Shown here: positions 15,360-20,121 of the stretch, piece after piece
How positions within the stretch are numbered: position 1 is the stretch's first letter
Layout of the letters: each line of letters opens with the position of its first letter
Origin: an uncultured Eubacteriales bacterium
Lineage (GTDB): Bacteria > Bacillota > Clostridia > Oscillospirales > CAG-272
Direction of reading: 5' to 3'
Length of the DNA stretch: 64,000 bases
Assembly: GCA_934373635.1 (NCBI GenBank)
Contig: CAKROZ010000005.1
Span: forward strand, 20,356-84,355
The notes under the pieces: generated by a model
The model's database searches: none
What the model was told of the DNA's origin: nothing
Seen by the model: the letters and a program-made list of their open reading frames with translations, nothing else
Program-made: the position numbers and the translations under genes

Positions 15360-16034
15360 ATGACATTAGGAAAAATTATAAAAGAATATCGGGAAAAGCA
15401 TCAATTGTCGCAGCGGCAATTTGCTTCGTTATGCGATGTTTCAAACGGATATATTTCCATGCTTGAAGACGAACGAAATCCGAAAACGAACGAACCGATC
15501 GTACCTTCAATAGCGACTATGAAAAAACTCGCCAAGGCAATGGGCACATCGCTGAATGAACTAATGAGTATAGCCGATGATATGGAAGTATCCATGATGG
15601 ATCAGGAATTTCCAATTGCAAGTATCAAAAATCTCCGCCCCGTAGAAAAGCAAAGAATCCCGATGCTCGGCAGGATCGCCTGCGGTAAGCCGATCTACGC
15701 GGAGGAAGAGCATGAGTGCTATGTCGCTGCGGGGGCAAAGATGGACGCCGACTTCTGCCTCACCTGTCAGGGAGACAGTATGACGGGCGCGGGAATCCAT
15801 GACGGCGACATCGTTTTCATCAAGCAGCAGGAAGCCGTCGACAACGGGCAGGTCGCCGCAATCATCATCGGCGAAGAAGCAACGCTGAAGCGGGTGTACT
15901 ACTTCCCCGAGACCGCAAAGCTCGTTCTGCAAGCGGAAAACCCGAAGTACGAGCCGCTTGTCTACACTGGCGAAGAGCTGAACGGCATCAAAATTCTCGG
16001 AAGAGCCGTCGCCTATATGAGCGCCATCGTTTGA
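15360..16034 (+). CDS. cI: CI-like repressor (XRE HTH plus S24 LexA-like peptidase domain)
   Basis: The N-terminal HTH reads QLSQRQFASLCDVSNGYISMLE. The C-terminus carries CQGDSMTGAGI (Ser nucleophile) and ATLKRVY (Lys). Confidence 0.9.
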   Translation: MTLGKIIKEYREKHQLSQRQFASLCDVSNGYISMLEDERNPKTNEPIVPSIATMKKLAKAMGTSLNELMSIADDMEVSMMDQEFPIASIKNLRPVEKQRIPMLGRIACGKPIYAEEEHECYVAAGAKMDADFCLTCQGDSMTGAGIHDGDIVFIKQQEAVDNGQVAAIIIGEEATLKRVYYFPETAKLVLQAENPKYEPLVYTGEELNGIKILGRAVAYMSAIV

Positions 16035-16067: not shown

Positions 16068-16484
16068 ATGGTTCCCTCTTATGTTATTTTATTGTTCTGC
16101 GGCATTGCCCTTGTTCTTATTCTATTCAACTGGGCATCTTTGAAAGACAGCTCACGCGGAATGAAATACTGTTTCGGCGCGTGTCTCGCTTTCGGGCTTC
16201 TCTGCCTCATAGCAACCGGTGAGTACGCTTCCGGGTTCTATCAATTTGTGCGCTTGTTTGCCCTGTTCGATCTCGGCATCATGATTATCACATACAGTGC
16301 AGAAACCGAAACATTTCTCAACCCGGTCACATGTATTGCCGGCACAATGCTGATCCTCTTCAATCCTATCGTTCCCATATACTTGGATAAATCGACATGG
16401 CAATCAATCGATATATTCTCCGGCATTGCCTCTTTTGGTCTCGGATGTTACATTTTGAAGAAGAACATTGCGGGAGCAGAATGA
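16068..16484 (+). CDS. Lysogeny-module membrane protein, paralog 1 (138 aa)
   Basis: AAGGAGG RBS. Multi-TM protein. Shares the KYC.GAC.AFGL...FNPI.PIYL domain with the next gene. Confidence 0.6.
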   Translation: MVPSYVILLFCGIALVLILFNWASLKDSSRGMKYCFGACLAFGLLCLIATGEYASGFYQFVRLFALFDLGIMIITYSAETETFLNPVTCIAGTMLILFNPIVPIYLDKSTWQSIDIFSGIASFGLGCYILKKNIAGAE

Positions 16485-16525: not shown

Positions 16526-17176
16526 ATGGATCTCTACCTCGTTGCCGCTATTATTATGTTGGCACTCTTTATTGCCGCGATCGTTACCGTTTACTCTGCC
16601 CGTGCATCTTTGAAAAGCAGACCGCTATGGATAAAATGCGCTCTCGGTATGGGCTTCGTTGTCGGAGTTTTCCTCATGGCGGCGTTCAACGAGCCGGAGT
16701 ATGTTGATGTCGGGATTGTTCTTGTTATTTTGTCACTCTGCGGCGTCATAGCGCTCGCGATTTATTCCAACCGTGCGCCGATTCCCGACGCAACTGTCGC
16801 GAGAAGTCGTGCGGGAATGGCAGTACGATTTTATAAAACTTTGAAGAGTAGCTCCGCGAAAGTCAAATACTGTTACGGTGCGTGCGCCGCTTTCGGGCTC
16901 TTCTGTATCATCGGAATGCTCGACTGCGGAAGCGGGTATTACCACTTTTTGCGCCTATTTACCCTGTTTGCACTCGGCATCACGATCATCGCGTTCGGCA
17001 AGGAGATCGGAACATTTTTCAGTCCCGTCACCTTGATTGCCGGGACACTGGTGATTCTTTTCAATCCGATCTCTCCCATATATTTAACCGCGGGAGCATG
17101 GCTGTTTATAGATTTCATCTCCGCCATCGTTTCCTTTTGGCTCAGCATCTATATTGTGAAGAAATCCACTCAATAG
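16526..17176 (+). CDS. Lysogeny-module membrane protein, paralog 2 (216 aa)
   Basis: TAGGAG RBS. Has extra N-terminal TM segments followed by the same ~110-aa domain as 16068..16484. Confidence 0.6.
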   Translation: MDLYLVAAIIMLALFIAAIVTVYSARASLKSRPLWIKCALGMGFVVGVFLMAAFNEPEYVDVGIVLVILSLCGVIALAIYSNRAPIPDATVARSRAGMAVRFYKTLKSSSAKVKYCYGACAAFGLFCIIGMLDCGSGYYHFLRLFTLFALGITIIAFGKEIGTFFSPVTLIAGTLVILFNPISPIYLTAGAWLFIDFISAIVSFWLSIYIVKKSTQ

Positions 17177-17186
17177 CACCCTGCAA

Positions 17187-17214
17187 TAAAAAAAGCGCCT
17201 TCCGAAGAAGGCGC
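17187..17214 (-). terminator. Terminator of the TAC operon
   Basis: Hairpin GCGCCTTC-CGAA-GAAGGCGC followed on the minus strand by a T7 run. Confidence 0.6.
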
Positions 17215-17242
17215 GGGGAGTAGGCTCTCGATTTATTTCATC

Positions 17243-17656
17243 TTAAATGTTTTTCGTCTCGGCTTTTGCAAAAAGCTCGTTGATGTTCATCACCGGGAGC
17301 GTATACGGAGGAATATTTGCATTTGTAGTAATCATCGTAATCAGCGATCTCAAATAGGGGAACAAGATGGCTGTCGTATTTGAGATCATAAGATCCCGCG
17401 ACTCTTCTTTATCCCAATCGGGCAAAGAGAAGACCCCCTCAATGCAGATATCCATCATAAACGGGGCATCCGATGCCTCAGTGATTCTAAATATTAAATC
17501 GATTGCCGCCGTGTCTGCATCGATTTTGTGAATAATACGCTTAAATTCCGGGTGCAATTCGATCTCATCCCCTTGAGATTGAAAAGACGCATTCAGTTTG
17601 AACGCCATATTTTTCACAACATAGTTTTCCAATGTCAATACACTGTTAACCGACAT
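17243..17656 (-). CDS. SecB-like chaperone (TAC chaperone)
   Basis: AILFPYLRSLITMITTNANIPPYTLPVMNINELF parallels E. coli SecB [34 protein letters not shown]. The likely start is ATG 17656 (GGAGGAG 9 nt upstream), which overlaps the antitoxin end by 11 nt. Confidence 0.7.
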   Translation of the reverse strand: MSVNSVLTLENYVVKNMAFKLNASFQSQGDEIELHPEFKRIIHKIDADTAAIDLIFRITEASDAPFMMDICIEGVFSLPDWDKEESRDLMISNTTAILFPYLRSLITMITTNANIPPYTLPVMNINELFAKAETKNI

Positions 17657-18209
17657 ACCGTTCATCTCCTCCGTTTCTATACGCAAAGAATTTTCCTCTT
17701 GTCGCATACTGCGATCTTGACGAATAATTTGTTTTTATACAAGCTTTATGTGTGTGAATGAGTTGCTCTATTCTCATGTTTTCGCTTTCCGATAAATCAC
17801 CTTTGCGAACGCTCCAAATATCCTCAAAAGCATCAACGTTTTTCATCAATCTGATGAGATTGTCATGACATTCGTCCTGAATCGCGCCGTTTTCGTATCG
17901 CGTTATTGTTTTTTCCCCAAACCCGAGCAGCTTCGAGAATGAAGCCTGCGAAAGCTTATACCTTGCACGAATATCGCGAATCTCCTCCGAAGTAAGTAAA
18001 TGCTCCGATTCTCTGTATACATCGTAAAAACGCTTCAAGGTAGCTCCGTCGAGATCTTCATCGATGATCTCTTCGCCGCAATGCGCACATACCCTGACCT
18101 TCGCGACAAGGGTGATCGGCTTTCCTTTTACGGATAATGTCTGTTCCTTTTCAATAATCTTGGTATCCGTCATTTCATCACAGTCGGGGCAATACCATGA
18201 TTCTTTCAT
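17646..18209 (-). CDS. MqsA-like antitoxin (Zn-ribbon plus XRE HTH) with a C-terminal extension
   Basis: Zn-ribbon CPDCDE...CAHCGEE, then the HTH LSQASFSKLLGFGEKTITRYENG. At 187 aa it is longer than the canonical ~130 aa. Confidence 0.78.
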   Translation of the reverse strand: MKESWYCPDCDEMTDTKIIEKEQTLSVKGKPITLVAKVRVCAHCGEEIIDEDLDGATLKRFYDVYRESEHLLTSEEIRDIRARYKLSQASFSKLLGFGEKTITRYENGAIQDECHDNLIRLMKNVDAFEDIWSVRKGDLSESENMRIEQLIHTHKACIKTNYSSRSQYATRGKFFAYRNGGDERYVG

Positions 18210-18262
18210 ACTCTTCTCCCCCTATTACAATTCAAATTTATGTTTGTTTGATCTTTGAGTTT

Positions 18263-18610
18263 TTAATCGCTATATTCATCTATATGATAACTCAACACTA
18301 ATAATTGCCCTTTGGGATCACTTTTAATCTTTAGTTTAATGTAAAGCCGTTCACCATGCAAATGCTTTTTGATGATCCATACGAACCCGGGGTATCTGGA
18401 ATCTCTGTCATTGTCTTGCCGCCACTGATCCTTAGGCGAAAGATGATAAATGTCGTCCCACACATCCTCGGTGGTGATGCCGAATTGCGACAGAGTTGAC
18501 ATGTACTTGCTCCTGCGATCTAATATTTGCGTGTTTCCGCTGTCAATTGCACATCGAACTTGCTCTAAAAATCGGTCAATTTCAGTCACAATCAAATCAC
18601 CCCCATTCAT
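18263..18610 (-). CDS. MqsR-like toxin (putative)
   Basis: LEQVRCAIDSGN, DVWDDIYHLSPKD and ERLYIKLKI...LLVLSYH parallel E. coli MqsR LSQVKKLVNAGQ, IWQDVY and QVYLKITV..LIVSFKE. The toxin gene comes before the antitoxin gene, as in mqsRA. Start uncertain (18610 or 18631). Confidence 0.6.
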   Translation of the reverse strand: MNGGDLIVTEIDRFLEQVRCAIDSGNTQILDRRSKYMSTLSQFGITTEDVWDDIYHLSPKDQWRQDNDRDSRYPGFVWIIKKHLHGERLYIKLKIKSDPKGQLLVLSYHIDEYSD

Positions 18611-18613
18611 GTT

Positions 18614-18658
18614 GGTATCATGTGATACCATATTAGCACAAAATTTTTTTCATGTCAA
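18614..18658 (-). promoter_or_regulatory. TAC promoter with a palindromic operator
   Basis: The minus strand reads TTGACA-17 nt-TAATAT. The perfect palindrome GGTATCA-CA-TGATACC (18614-18629) follows immediately. Confidence 0.55.
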
Positions 18659-18761
18659 TACCATTTGCAAAAATAACACAATTCGGAACAAATTGTTTAC
18701 AAAATTAGGTGAAAACAGAAAGAAAAATATCCACCTTCAAAACGAGAAAGCGTAATACAAA

Positions 18762-19805
18762 GTGATGATTAAAAAACTTGTAAAAAATGCGGACGGAAGA
18801 TACTCCCGATCCATCACGGGAACGGACGGAAAGCGTCACTATTTTCACGGGTACACACAATCCGAGGTTGAGCTACAAATTCAGAAGTTTCTCGCCTCCG
18901 AGGAACTCGGGCGGTTCTTCTCTACGGTAGCCGATGAATGGTGGAGCGACATCTCGGAGCGGATCGCCGTTCAATCCTATCGGAATTATAAACGCGGGTA
19001 CGACGAGGCTCGCAGCGTGTTCGGAACAATGCCCGTCGGGACTATCACTCCGCGCGATGTTGCCGCATATCTGCGTAGGTTTCAGGAACAGGGCTATGCC
19101 TACAAAACAATTGCAAATTATAAAATGGTATTGTCCTCTATTCTGACGCGGGCAATCTTTGAAGGGGATATTGATGTGAACCCGTGCGCGGTAGTGAAGT
19201 TGCCGAACGGATTGCCGAAAAAAAAGCGCCCTGCCGCTTCTCTTTCCGATGAGGAAAAGATTCTCGCGGCAAAAGGCGACTGTCTTCTCTACTATATTGC
19301 CATCATGACAGGGCTTCGGAAGGGCGAAATTCTTGCTCTTCGATGGAAGTGCTTCCACTTTGACCGACATGTCATCACGATAGACGCCTCCGTCGCTCAT
19401 GCCGGCGATCGTCCCATTGTAAAAGGAACCAAAAGCGAGGCGGGAACGCGCGAGGTTCCTCTTCTCCCCGCGCTCGCCGATGTGCTTCTGCCACTCTCTG
19501 TGGGAACGAACGAAGACGATTATCTTTTTTCCGCAGACGGCGGAAAGACCCCGCTCACAAACCGACGGTTTCTCACGATGACGCGACATCTGTCGGAAAA
19601 ATTCGGTTTGACCTCAACCCTGCATCAGCTACGGCATACCTATGCTTCCATCGCCGTGCAAAGCGGCGTAGAGCCGAAAGTGCTTCAATCCATCATGGGA
19701 CATCGACAGATCTCCACCACCTTGGATATTTACGCGGAAGTGCGCCGGGAAGGACTTGACAAGGCGATGGACGCCTTCGCCTCCTCTCCGCTCGGCAGGC
19801 GATAA
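18762..19805 (+). CDS. int: Tyrosine-type site-specific integrase
   Basis: 347 aa. GLRKGEILALRW (catalytic Arg), HQLRHTYAS (H-x-x-R), and GHRQISTTLDIYAE (His...Tyr). Confidence 0.9.
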   Translation: MMIKKLVKNADGRYSRSITGTDGKRHYFHGYTQSEVELQIQKFLASEELGRFFSTVADEWWSDISERIAVQSYRNYKRGYDEARSVFGTMPVGTITPRDVAAYLRRFQEQGYAYKTIANYKMVLSSILTRAIFEGDIDVNPCAVVKLPNGLPKKKRPAASLSDEEKILAAKGDCLLYYIAIMTGLRKGEILALRWKCFHFDRHVITIDASVAHAGDRPIVKGTKSEAGTREVPLLPALADVLLPLSVGTNEDDYLFSADGGKTPLTNRRFLTMTRHLSEKFGLTSTLHQLRHTYASIAVQSGVEPKVLQSIMGHRQISTTLDIYAEVRREGLDKAMDAFASSPLGRR

Positions 19806-19969
19806 AAGATGTACCGCGAACGCAAGCGCCTTCTTCTATCATTGTATAATCCATGCTTTTTTGCCCAAAAATACAGCTTCATCGGCTGAAAATCTGGCAC
19901 GTTTTTGGCACGCGAAACCTACTTTCGCACAAAAAAGCAAACAAAACGGCGCATTTTGTAAATCATGGA

Positions 19970-20016
19970 AAAAGCCCGAAAACACCTTGAAACATCAGTG
20001 TTTTCGGGCTTTTTTC
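19970..20016. terminator. Bidirectional hairpin between int and tRNA-Ser
   Basis: AAAAGCCCGAAAACAC...GTGTTTTCGGGCTTTTTT. Flanked by an A-run and a T-run. Confidence 0.6.
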
Positions 20017-20029
20017 ACGCTCTACGTGT

Positions 20030-20121
20030 TGGCGGAGAAGGAGAGATTTGAACTCTCGCGCCGGTAAAGCCGGCCTACACCCTTAGCAGGGGCGCCTCTT
20101 CGACCTCTTGAGTACTTCTCC
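20030..20121 (-). tRNA. tRNA-Ser (anticodon GCU)
   Basis: Folded by hand. Acceptor GGAGAAG/CTTCTCC. Anticodon stem CGCCC/GGGTG with loop CTGCTAA. Long variable arm. T-arm GAGAG-TTCAAAT-CTCTC. Encoded CCA. Confidence 0.9.

What the first reader, a model, noticed from the sequence alone, without database searches (positions are those of the whole stretch)
17243..18658. Three-gene toxin / antitoxin / SecB-like chaperone (TAC) module in the prophage lysogeny region
Between the cI operon and the integrase, three minus-strand genes form one transcription unit.
- An MqsR-like toxin, 18263-18610.
- An MqsA-like Zn-ribbon/HTH antitoxin, 17646-18209.
- A SecB-like chaperone, 17243-17656.

The toxin-first gene order matches mqsRA. 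The antitoxin is about 50 aa longer than canonical MqsA. Its extra C-terminal segment (…HTHKACIKTNYSSRSQYATRGKFFAYRNGGDERYVG) overlaps the chaperone start by 11 nt. In characterised TAC systems (M. tuberculosis HigBA1-SecB-like, and MqsRA- and HicAB-type TACs), the chaperone-addiction segment sits in that position.

The unit has its own consensus promoter, TTGACA-17-TAATAT. A perfect palindrome, GGTATCA-CA-TGATACC, follows directly and is a plausible autoregulatory operator.

The location (between int and cI, and AT-richer than the phage core) suggests a lysogen-expressed stabilisation or abortive-infection function. As far as I know this has not been tested for TAC systems in Clostridia prophages.
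Basis: partly seen in the sequence, partly recalled or inferred. Interest (0 to 1): 0.72.

Follow-up and report, generated by a model that had tools for sequence, protein, structure and literature searches.

The report
Prophage toxin–antitoxin–chaperone (MqsRA-type TAC) module
A prophage in an uncultured gut-type Clostridia bacterium carries a real three-gene toxin / antitoxin / SecB-like chaperone cassette with its own repressible promoter; this kind of system is already known in E. coli, Vibrio and Mycobacterium, where it defends against phages, so this is a well-supported new member and not a new kind.

Summary
Three minus-strand genes (17243-18610) encode a diverged MqsR-fold toxin, an MqsA-family Zn-ribbon/HTH antitoxin and a SecB-like chaperone. 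A sigma-70-type promoter precedes them and a strong terminator follows.

The toxin misses the Pfam cut-off. Profile-profile comparison (94% probability), the fold match (top PDB hit 3HI2_B) and family linkage (87 of 140 relatives hit MqsR_toxin) place it with MqsR.

The antitoxin is folded to about residue 158. A predicted-disordered 29-residue tail follows, with two conserved aromatic positions (Y162, Y168), and its end overlaps the chaperone start by 11 nt.

The palindrome next to the -10 box is nearly invariant in diverged relatives. Searching public DNA with that 22-nt site alone recovered the same gene family downstream in 25 of 26 loci.

A relative without a SecB gene lacks the tail.

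MqsRA-type TACs (Bordes 2016), phage defence by an E. coli MqsRAC (Vassallo 2022) and prophage-borne TACs next to cI (Mets 2024) are published. This is therefore a new member of a known kind, in a new host group and untested experimentally. The conserved operator and the diverged toxin subfamily are the only modest additions. Interest is about 0.3.

The parts
18630..18658 (-). Sigma-70-type promoter: -35 TTGACA (18658-18653), 17-nt spacer, TG-extended -10 TAATAT (18635-18630)
   Evidence: 10 of 12 matches, TG present. The -35 TTGACA and -10 TAnAAT recur at the same distance from the palindrome in 7 of 8 diverged relatives.
18613..18630 (.). Palindromic operator TGGTATCA-ca-TGATACCA (core GGTATCAcaTGATACC at 18614-18629). 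It abuts the -10 box and covers the expected transcription start.
   Evidence: single copy in the window. The 14-nt core is 98% identical across 8 diverged loci, against 54-65% in the flanks. Searching with the site alone retrieved the same gene family in 25 of 26 loci.
18263..18610 (-). The likely true start is GTG 18589 or TTG 18595, behind the SD GGGGGTGA at 18604-18597.
   Evidence: Pfam MqsR_toxin E 0.007, below cut-off. Family profile against E. coli MqsR by hhalign: 94.4% probability, E 9e-8. AF2 model pLDDT 83. Top PDB fold hit is 3HI2_B (MqsR), probability 1.00, TM 0.73. 87 of 140 family members hit PF15723. Start inferred.
17646..18209 (-). MqsA-family antitoxin, 187 aa: Zn-ribbon (C7, C10, C41, C44), HTH domain, extra helix 141-158, then a tail
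   Evidence: TIGR03830 E 1.7e-30 and PF15731 E 3.4e-11. Profile against 3GN5 E 8e-10. Foldseek top hit 3GN5_A, E 4.5e-6. Cys ligands invariant or nearly invariant in 119 homologues.
17649..17735 (-). Predicted chaperone-addiction (ChAD-like) tail, antitoxin residues 159-187 (IKTNYSSRSQYATRGKFFAYRNGGDERYVG)
   Evidence: Coil with pLDDT falling from 59 to 48, after a well-folded core. Y162 is aromatic in 95% and Y168 in 100% of 119 homologues; position 176 is aromatic in 73%; G181 is kept in 82%. The tail is absent from the Clostridium pascui relative that has no SecB gene.
17243..17656 (-). SecB-like TAC chaperone, 137 aa. SD GGAGGAG at 17672-17666. The start overlaps the antitoxin stop by 11 nt.
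   Evidence: PF02556 E 2.8e-11, above cut-off. PADLOC PD-T4-9_C E 6e-20. phrog_21664 E 8e-20. H. influenzae SecB 1FX3 E 4e-4. NCBIfam housekeeping SecB models score far below their cut-offs. The same 11-nt overlap is seen in L025, L026 and L028.
17185..17214 (-). Intrinsic terminator GCGCCTTC-ttcg-GAAGGCGC followed by TTTTTTTATT
   Evidence: 8 pairs, 6 of them G-C.

Best explanation
This is a tripartite toxin-antitoxin-chaperone (TAC) module of the MqsRA type. It is carried as AT-rich cargo between the cI-like repressor operon and the integrase of a prophage in an uncultured Clostridia bacterium.

Shown by sequence, profile, fold and comparative evidence:
- One promoter drives three translationally linked genes and one terminator ends them.
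- The genes encode an MqsR-fold toxin, an MqsA-family Zn-ribbon/HTH antitoxin with a disordered, aromatic-rich C-terminal tail, and a SecB-like protein of the TAC-chaperone type.
- An 18-bp palindrome abutting the -10 box is conserved specifically with this gene family.

Inferred from characterised TACs (M. tuberculosis HigBA1-SecB, V. cholerae and E. coli MqsRAC, E. coli HigBAC and CmdTAC):
- The antitoxin's Zn-ribbon domain binds and neutralises the toxin, which is most likely an mRNA-cleaving RNase.
- The antitoxin's HTH dimer sits on the palindrome and represses the operon.
- The tail makes the antitoxin unstable unless a tetramer of the chaperone holds it through aromatic anchors (here Y162 and Y168, and perhaps the aromatic at about 176).
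- When the chaperone is titrated away, most plausibly by nascent structural proteins of a superinfecting phage, the antitoxin is degraded. The toxin then shuts down translation and the infection aborts.

My probabilities: about 0.9 that it is a genuine chaperone-dependent TAC, and about 0.55 that its main role is defence of the lysogen against other phages.
For: **Anatomy**
- ORFs, Shine-Dalgarno sites, promoter, terminator and the 11-nt overlap.

**Family assignments**
- Antitoxin and chaperone.
- Toxin: AF2 model; top PDB hit is MqsR 3HI2_B, about 100-fold better in E-value than the next; hhalign 94.4%, with E. coli Y81 aligned to the family's invariant Tyr; 87 of 140 relatives hit PF15723.

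**Architecture**
- Toxin-antitoxin-chaperone order in L001-L007, L009 and L025-L030.
- The same order in all loci found through the operator that have enough downstream sequence.

**Tail**
- Predicted disordered with conserved aromatic positions.
- Y-x5-Y has the same i, i+6 spacing as the W108/Y114 anchors of the M. tuberculosis ChAD (PMC6377645).
- Aromatic ChAD motifs are the recognition element in HigBAC.
- A natural control without SecB has no tail.

**Operator**
-.

**Context**
- GC 42% against 55-60%.
- The neighbours are cI, integrase and tRNA-Ser.
- The cI-integrase interval varies from 10 nt to 2.7 kb in distant relatives.
- Relatives sit beside integrases, ImmA, Bro/ANT genes and defence genes.
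- Three operator hits lie in IMG/VR viral contigs.

**Literature**
- E. coli MqsRAC protects against T2, and extra chaperone abolishes that protection (PMC9519451).
- HigBAC sits downstream of cI in a lambdoid prophage and is triggered by a tail protein that competes with the ChAD.
Against: - Nothing here is experimental. Toxicity, neutralisation, chaperone dependence, DNA binding and defence are all inferred.
- The toxin alone fails Pfam's MqsR cut-off. A shallow profile found no MqsR in the PDB by sequence.
- Of the four E. coli MqsR active-site residues, only Y81 is kept. K56 aligns to R, K96 to H and Q68 to I. Substrate, and even RNase activity, are therefore not assured.
- The tail's low pLDDT could partly reflect alignment variability.
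- I could not co-fold the tail with the chaperone.
- The palindrome differs from the E. coli MqsA site (ACCT-N-AGGT; my own knowledge), so binding is inferred from conservation only.
- The prophage is cut by the window edge, so whether it is intact or active is unknown.
- No isolate phage carries this cassette.
Confidence: 0.78

Rival explanations
1. The same TAC works mainly as an addiction (post-segregational killing) module. It penalises loss or excision of the prophage and does not act as a phage sensor.
For: - It lies beside the integrase and att site.
- The antitoxin is built to be unstable.
- Stabilisation of mobile elements is a classic TA role, for example higBA on plasmid Rts1.
Against: - Chaperone dependence is not needed for addiction.
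- The two TAC types tested for a function on prophages or in E. coli acted in phage defence.
- Relatives also occur in defence-island contexts without an integrase nearby.
Confidence: 0.2
2. It is a stress-responsive growth regulator like the chromosomal M. tuberculosis TAC. Toxin release follows general proteotoxic stress that occupies the chaperone, and has no particular link to phages.
For: The M. tuberculosis TAC is induced by heat, hypoxia and starvation (PMC3581621). Any flood of unfolded clients could in principle titrate a SecB-like holdase.
Against: The cassette is horizontally acquired prophage cargo with foreign base composition and travels with mobile and defence genes. That fits a conflict system better than host physiology.
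Confidence: 0.1
3. It is an ordinary two-component MqsRA pair. The SecB-like gene downstream has an independent role, and the antitoxin tail is a neutral extension with no chaperone addiction.
For: - A promoter-like site lies just inside the chaperone gene (17638-17609).
- Chaperone dependence was not tested.
Against: - The 11-nt overlap, or close coupling, of antitoxin and chaperone genes is conserved.
- The three genes co-occur in every close relative.
- Tail aromatic positions are conserved at 95-100%.
- The relative without SecB has no tail.
- The internal promoter-like site is at chance level.
Confidence: 0.05
4. It is a decaying, non-functional remnant.
For: One related contig (L059) shows fragmented antitoxin and chaperone reading frames.
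Against: - All three window ORFs are intact, with Shine-Dalgarno sites.
- The DNA is identical in several independent metagenome assemblies.
- Family-invariant residues are present.
- The L059 contig name gives 0.88x coverage, so its breaks are probably assembly errors.
Confidence: 0.03

Closest known systems
MqsRA-type TAC systems: V. cholerae RC385 Vcho-TAC (Bordes et al. 2016, PMC5105189) and E. coli C496_10 MqsRAC (Vassallo et al. 2022, PMC9519451)
   Same: - The gene order is MqsR-like toxin, then MqsA-like Zn-ribbon/HTH antitoxin, then SecB-like chaperone.
- The antitoxin carries a C-terminal extension of about 40-55 aa beyond the MqsA core. The Vcho-MqsA ChAD is residues 136-176; here the extension runs from about residue 137 to 187.
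- The E. coli system defends against phage T2, and excess chaperone disarms it.
   Different: - The host is an uncultured Clostridia bacterium, not a gamma-proteobacterium.
- The toxin belongs to a diverged subfamily that fails the Pfam MqsR cut-off and keeps only one of the four E. coli active-site residues unchanged.
- The ChAD sequence is unrelated. ChADs are known to be hypervariable.
- The operator palindrome is GGTATCAyATGATACC.
- There are no experimental data.
Prophage-borne TACs: E. coli NT1F31 HigBAC (lambdoid prophage, downstream of cI) and CmdTAC / PD-T4-9 (Mets et al. 2024 bioRxiv 10.1101/2024.02.24.581848; PMC11618068)
   Same: - Both are carried in the variable lysogeny or cargo region of a prophage.
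- The SecB-like chaperone is homologous. The window protein matches PADLOC PD-T4-9_C at E 6e-20.
- The ChAD is recognised through conserved aromatic residues.
- In those systems the proposed trigger is a phage structural protein competing for the chaperone.
   Different: - The toxin and antitoxin families differ: HigB/HigA and the ADP-ribosyltransferase CmdT with CmdA, against MqsR/MqsA here.
- The window's toxin and antitoxin give no match to any PD-T4-9 model; the only PD-T4-9 hit is the chaperone's.
M. tuberculosis TAC (Rv1955-1957, HigB1-HigA1-SecB^TA)
   Same: - It is a tripartite operon with a chaperone-addiction tail.
- The two aromatic anchors are six residues apart: W108/Y114 there, Y162/Y168 here.
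- A basic residue and a Gly lie nearby in both tails.
   Different: - The TA pair is HigBA, not MqsRA.
- It is chromosomal and stress-induced.
- The chaperone can also replace the export SecB.
- The tails share no detectable sequence similarity beyond the pattern.
Canonical E. coli MqsR/MqsA (PDB 3HI2, 3GN5, 3O9X)
   Same: - The toxin and the antitoxin have the same folds.
- The gene order is toxin first.
- The four Zn-binding Cys are kept.
- The HTH Arg (E. coli R101, window R104) is conserved.
   Different: - It has two genes only, with no tail and no chaperone.
- Its antitoxin is 131 aa, against 187 aa here.
- The base-reading Asn97 is Lys100 here, and the operator sequence differs.

Membership tests
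TAC (toxin-antitoxin-chaperone) systems | Three adjacent co-oriented genes in one operon: a type II toxin, its antitoxin, and a SecB homologue last | tested here: met
   The same order is found in all close relatives.
TAC (toxin-antitoxin-chaperone) systems | The chaperone is homologous to SecB (PF02556) but is not the housekeeping export SecB | tested here: met
   - PF02556 scores 43.9 bits against a cut-off of 26.
- PD-T4-9_C matches at E 6e-20.
- NCBIfam SecB equivalog models score 20-39 bits against cut-offs of 103-277.
TAC (toxin-antitoxin-chaperone) systems | The antitoxin resembles a canonical antitoxin and adds an unstructured, variable C-terminal extension (ChAD) with aromatic recognition residues | tested here: met
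   - The core matches MqsA.
- Residues 159-187 are coil with pLDDT 59 falling to 48.
- Y162 and Y168 are aromatic in 95% and 100% of homologues.
- The tail is absent in the relative that lacks SecB.
TAC (toxin-antitoxin-chaperone) systems | The antitoxin needs the cognate chaperone to be stable and to neutralise the toxin | not testable with these tools
   This needs co-expression and rescue assays. Multimer co-folding was not available.
MqsR toxin family (PF15723) | Score above Pfam's gathering threshold | tested here: not met
   17.2 bits against 26.2.
MqsR toxin family (PF15723) | Remote homology and the same fold as E. coli MqsR | tested here: met
   - hhalign gives 94.4% probability, E 9e-8, over 87 columns.
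- Foldseek's top hit is 3HI2_B, probability 1.00, TM 0.73, rmsd 2.8 A.
- 87 of 140 family members hit PF15723 on their own.
MqsR toxin family (PF15723) | Active-site residues K56, Q68, Y81 and K96 of E. coli MqsR. The residue list is from my own knowledge of Brown et al. 2009; the sequence was checked against 3HI2. | tested here: inconclusive
   Y81 aligns to the invariant Tyr. K56 aligns to R, K96 to H and Q68 to I. RNase activity is plausible but not assured.
MqsA antitoxin family (TIGR03830 / PF15731) | Model score above cut-off; two CxxC Zn-ribbon motifs; a C-terminal Xre-type HTH | tested here: met
   - TIGR03830 scores 105.4 bits against 61.8, and PF15731 scores 43.8 against 30.
- C7, C10, C41 and C44 are conserved.
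- HTH_3 matches.
CmdTAC / PD-T4-9 | ADP-ribosyltransferase toxin CmdT and antitoxin CmdA | tested here: not met
   Only the chaperone matches a PD-T4-9 model. The toxin and antitoxin do not.
Anti-phage defence system | Reduces productive infection by at least one phage | not testable with these tools
   This rests on analogy and on genomic context only.

The most novel reading that the evidence does not exclude
In this Clostridial MqsR-like clade, the C-terminus of the MqsA-type antitoxin is an exchangeable slot for stability or sensor modules. One toxin/antitoxin core is found with nothing attached (Clostridium pascui), with a ChAD tail plus a SecB-like chaperone (this window), or with a fused SocA/Panacea domain (Lachnospiraceae relatives). 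The SecB version would then be a prophage-encoded sensor of nascent structural proteins of competing Clostridia phages, read through a Y-x5-Y aromatic motif. All versions with the chaperone share one conserved operator. If so, TAC-type sensing would be a general superinfection-immunity device in gut anaerobes, and its trigger logic could be read from the tail motif.
Probability: 0.3. Interest if true: 0.5.

Novelty: new member of a known kind. Interest (0 to 1): 0.3.

Why it matters
It extends a recently recognised class of phage-defence systems (TACs) to prophages of uncultured gut-type Clostridia, where no such system has been tested.

It also gives concrete handles for experiments:
- a diverged MqsR-fold toxin subfamily that current Pfam annotation misses;
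- a short aromatic tail motif (Y162, Y168) as the candidate chaperone-binding element;
- a conserved 16-18-bp operator that by itself identifies the family in metagenomes (25 of 26 hits).

It does not change how these systems are understood. The architecture, the chaperone-addiction principle, the defence role and the prophage location are all already published for proteobacterial examples.

Tried and rejected
- **Shallow toxin profile against PDB sequences (12 sequences).** No MqsR hit, only noise. The deeper 140-sequence profile gave 3HI2 at only E 0.037. Profile-profile and fold comparison were needed.
- **DNA search of the cassette against 50,697 isolate phages.** No match.
- **Integrase and chaperone protein scans of IMG/VR.** No confirmed relatives.
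- **Search for the second att repeat of the tRNA-Ser end within the window.** None found. The prophage runs off the window edge, so its intactness could not be judged.
- **Cluster look-up for organism names.** The names were blank. Host assignment rests on named orthologues of homoserine dehydrogenase at 62-66% identity and on relatives' hosts.
- **Rfam scan of 16.9-20.2 kb.** It found only the tRNA plus sub-threshold noise.
- **Different toxin calls in identical DNA.** I considered that the 79-aa toxin call in contigs L031-L033 meant a truncated toxin. I rejected this because the DNA is 100% identical to the window and the difference is a gene-caller choice.
- **Housekeeping SecB.** I considered this for the chaperone and rejected it on the NCBIfam cut-offs, the translational coupling and the prophage context.
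Full report
**1. What is in the sequence**

On the minus strand between 17243 and 18658 there are three consecutive ORFs:
- a toxin candidate ending at 18263;
- a 187-aa ORF at 17646-18209;
- a 137-aa ORF at 17243-17656.

The toxin and antitoxin genes are 53 nt apart, and GGGGGAG lies 6 nt before the antitoxin ATG. The antitoxin stop (17646-17648) and the third gene's ATG (17656) overlap by 11 nt, and GGAGGAG lies 9-11 nt upstream of that ATG.

Upstream lies TTGACA-17 nt-TAATAT with a TG extended -10 (18658-18630). The palindrome TGGTATCA-ca-TGATACCA follows directly at 18613-18630 and occurs once in the window. An 8-bp GC-rich hairpin plus a T-run at 17214-17195 ends the unit.

The region is 42% GC against 55-60% around it. 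Its neighbours are:
- an HTH + S24 cI-like repressor (15360-16034, + strand);
- two DUF6804 membrane proteins;
- a tyrosine integrase (18762-19805, + strand);
- tRNA-Ser(GCT) at 20030-20121.

Phage replication and recombination genes run leftward from a Cro-like gene.

There are two small corrections:
- The promoter match by itself is not above chance (4 sites found against 4.6 expected).
- The toxin probably starts at GTG 18589 or TTG 18595, behind GGGGGTGA. ATG 18610 has no SD, ATG 18631 lies in the -10 box, and homologues start at the equivalent of "(M)TEID".

**2. Identity of the three proteins**

*Antitoxin.*
- TIGR03830 (MqsA family) gives E 1.7e-30 at 105 bits against a cut-off of 62. 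PF15731 gives E 3.4e-11.
- A 119-sequence profile matches E. coli MqsA (3GN5) at E 8e-10 over residues 7-123.
- The AF2 model's best PDB match is 3GN5_A, E 4.5e-6, probability 1.0.
- The four Zn-ligand cysteines C7, C10, C41 and C44 are invariant or nearly so.

*Chaperone.*
- PF02556 (SecB) gives E 2.8e-11, above cut-off.
- The PADLOC model for the CmdTAC chaperone (PD-T4-9_C) gives E 6e-20.
- H. influenzae SecB (1FX3) gives E 4e-4.
- NCBIfam housekeeping-SecB equivalogs score far below their cut-offs.

*Toxin.* This was the weak point of the claim. Pfam MqsR_toxin reaches only 17.2 bits against a cut-off of 26.2, and only 11 close homologues exist, none annotated. Three further lines of evidence place it with MqsR:
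- A profile of those homologues finds 527 representatives in 1.84 billion proteins. Of 140 aligned members, 87 hit PF15723 individually.
- The family profile aligns to E. coli MqsR with 94.4% probability, E 9e-8. I verified that sequence against 3HI2.
- An AF2 model (pLDDT 83) has 3HI2_B (MqsR) as its top PDB hit: probability 1.00, TM 0.73, rmsd 2.8 A over 99 columns. The next hit is about 100-fold worse in E-value.

The fold and the family are therefore MqsR-like. The active site is only partly conserved: Y81 aligns to the invariant Tyr, K56 to R, K96 to H and Q68 to I.

**3. Is it a unit, and is the tail special?**

All close toxin relatives have the same toxin-antitoxin-SecB order. These are L001-L007, L009 and L025-L030, with toxin identity down to about 30%. 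In three lineages the 11-nt antitoxin/chaperone overlap is identical.

The antitoxin model is confident to about residue 150 and helical to 158. It is coil from 159 to 187, with pLDDT falling from 59 to 48.

Within that tail, 119 homologues keep the following features:
- an aromatic residue at Y162 (95%) and at Y168 (100%);
- an aromatic residue near position 176 (73%);
- G181 (82%);
- a terminal Y-A/V-G.

Y-x5-Y has the same spacing as the W108/Y114 anchors of the M. tuberculosis ChAD peptide EVPTWHRLSSYRG (PMC6377645). Aromatic ChAD motifs are the recognised element in E. coli HigBAC.

Relatives give natural controls:
- The Clostridium pascui relatives (L008, L010) have the toxin and an MqsA that ends at the folded core, with no tail and no SecB gene.
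- More distant relatives (L011-L024) have no SecB. They carry an MqsA fused to a SocA/Panacea domain.

The tail and the chaperone therefore travel together.

**4. The operator**

I anchored eight diverged loci on the palindrome. The 14-nt core GTATCAyATGATAC is 98% identical and always abuts a TAnAAT -10 box. The spacer and downstream leader are only 54-65% identical.

As an independent test I searched IMG/VR and the metagenome collection with the 22-nt site alone, TAWAATGGTATCAYATGATACC. That returned 26 loci, 19 of them distinct.
- In 25 loci an MqsR-like ORF starts 5-49 nt downstream.
- Every one of those 25 with at least 1.4 kb of downstream sequence carries the antitoxin and chaperone genes in order; in L059 both are fragmented.
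- The one exception (L060) has an unrelated GC-rich gene downstream.

This is strong comparative evidence for a dedicated cis-element placed to block the transcription start. The half-site centres lie about one helical turn apart, which fits an HTH dimer (inference).

The site differs from the E. coli MqsA palindrome (my own knowledge). Consistent with that, the base-reading Asn97 of E. coli MqsA aligns to an invariant Lys100 here, while Arg101 is kept as R104.

**5. Context and host**

The window is 100% identical to an 85.5-kb ENA metagenome contig, and the cassette recurs identically in several assemblies. The host homoserine dehydrogenase has its best named relatives, at 62-66% identity, in "Clostridia bacterium" and Ruminococcaceae/Oscillospiraceae MAGs. 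Toxin relatives lie in Christensenellaceae, Clostridium and Lachnospiraceae.

Relatives of the cassette sit beside integrases and excisionases, ImmA, Bro/ANT phage genes, recombinases, Fic, type I restriction and STAND-like genes. In distant cI relatives the cI-integrase gap ranges from 10 nt to 1.3 kb, against 2.7 kb here. That is consistent with a cargo slot.

**6. Mechanism**

Shown: the anatomy, the family and fold assignments, the coupling of the genes, the tail features and the operator conservation.

Inferred by analogy with characterised TACs:
- The chaperone tetramer holds the aromatic tail and protects the antitoxin.
- The antitoxin neutralises the RNase-type toxin and represses the promoter.
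- Diversion of the chaperone, most likely by nascent structural proteins of an incoming phage, frees the toxin and aborts the infection.

Rival roles (prophage addiction, general stress response) use the same machinery and cannot be excluded computationally.

**7. Comparison and novelty**

The relevant published work is:
- MqsRA-, HigBA- and HicAB-type TACs were catalogued in 2013 (PMC3581621).
- The V. cholerae MqsRA-TAC and its ChAD (residues 136-176) were tested in 2016 (PMC5105189).
- An E. coli MqsRAC protects against T2, and excess chaperone disarms it (PMC9519451).
- Prophage-borne HigBAC sits downstream of cI and senses a tail protein through ChAD mimicry (bioRxiv 10.1101/2024.02.24.581848). 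The same paper mentions an MqsRA-associated SecB in a Lactiplantibacillus species.

A full-text search found no study of TACs in Clostridia prophages.

The finding is therefore correct and well read, but it is a new member of a known kind. The modest additions are the diverged and currently unannotated toxin subfamily, the Y-x5-Y tail motif and the conserved operator.

**Verdict.** Interest is 0.3. My confidence is about 0.9 that it is a genuine TAC and about 0.55 that its role is phage defence.

Noticed in passing
window 16068-16484 and 16526-17176 (+ strand): Two tandem DUF6804 (PF20619) multi-pass membrane proteins lie directly downstream of the cI-like repressor and converge on the TAC terminator. 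They are probably lysogen-expressed cargo of unknown function; superinfection exclusion is one possibility.
   Followed up: partly
L011-L024 (e.g. L013 6365-7441, L011 6347-7360): More distant relatives of the toxin, in Lachnospiraceae, Clostridium and Falcatimonas, pair with antitoxins of about 350 aa. These fuse an MqsA core to a SocA/Panacea domain (PF13274, E 8e-19 and 1e-14), and no SecB gene is present. This is an alternative C-terminal module on the same TA core.
   Followed up: partly
L008 5983-6826; L010 (Clostridium pascui, Clostridium sp. BSD9I1): These are two-gene MqsR-like/MqsA pairs. The antitoxin ends at the folded core, with no tail, and the next gene is an unrelated membrane protein. 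They serve as a natural control linking the tail to the presence of SecB.
   Followed up: yes
L035 1948-3390 (Latilactobacillus phage TMW 1.1386 P1, OP455936.1); L036 2214-2938 (Streptococcus satellite phage Javan245): SecB-like genes annotated as hypothetical (PF02556 E 1.5e-5 and 2.4e-4, just below cut-off) lie last in small gene clusters, one of them between the lysis genes and the integrase of an inducible phage. The upstream partners have no Pfam match. These may be TAC-like modules with unknown toxin and antitoxin families.
   Followed up: partly
L031-L034 (identical to window 17101-18800); L001 5993-6008: Gene callers disagree on the toxin start in identical DNA, giving 79 aa or 122 aa. 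In homologue P0003 the called ATG lies inside the operator palindrome and the AAGGAG that follows is the real SD. Database N-termini for this family are unreliable.
   Followed up: yes
window 19931-20121: tRNA-Ser(GCT) lies 225 nt beyond the integrase stop and is the probable integration site, but no matching att repeat is in the window. A hairpin between the integrase and the tRNA gives a sub-threshold Rfam Thr_leader hit (26.9 bits against 55). It is most likely just a bidirectional terminator, although homoserine dehydrogenase lies about 600 nt further on.
   Followed up: partly
protein P0136: A 2,367-aa protein matches positions 38-77 of the toxin-family profile in 16 separate stretches (E 6e-9). 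It is a repeat protein sharing a short motif with the toxin's helix-loop region. I have no explanation for this.
   Followed up: no
L060 (Ga0115028_10126331), site at 1344-1365: This is the only operator-pattern hit with no TAC downstream. The same TAAAAT + GGTATCATATGATACC site precedes an unrelated GC-rich ORF. It could be chance or a borrowed operator.
   Followed up: partly
L037-L040 (IMG/VR contigs with cI relatives at 43-55% identity): The distance between cI and the integrase varies: 10 nt, 455 nt and 1.3 kb in these contigs, against 2.7 kb in the window. This suggests the interval is a variable cargo slot in this loose group of prophages.
   Followed up: partly
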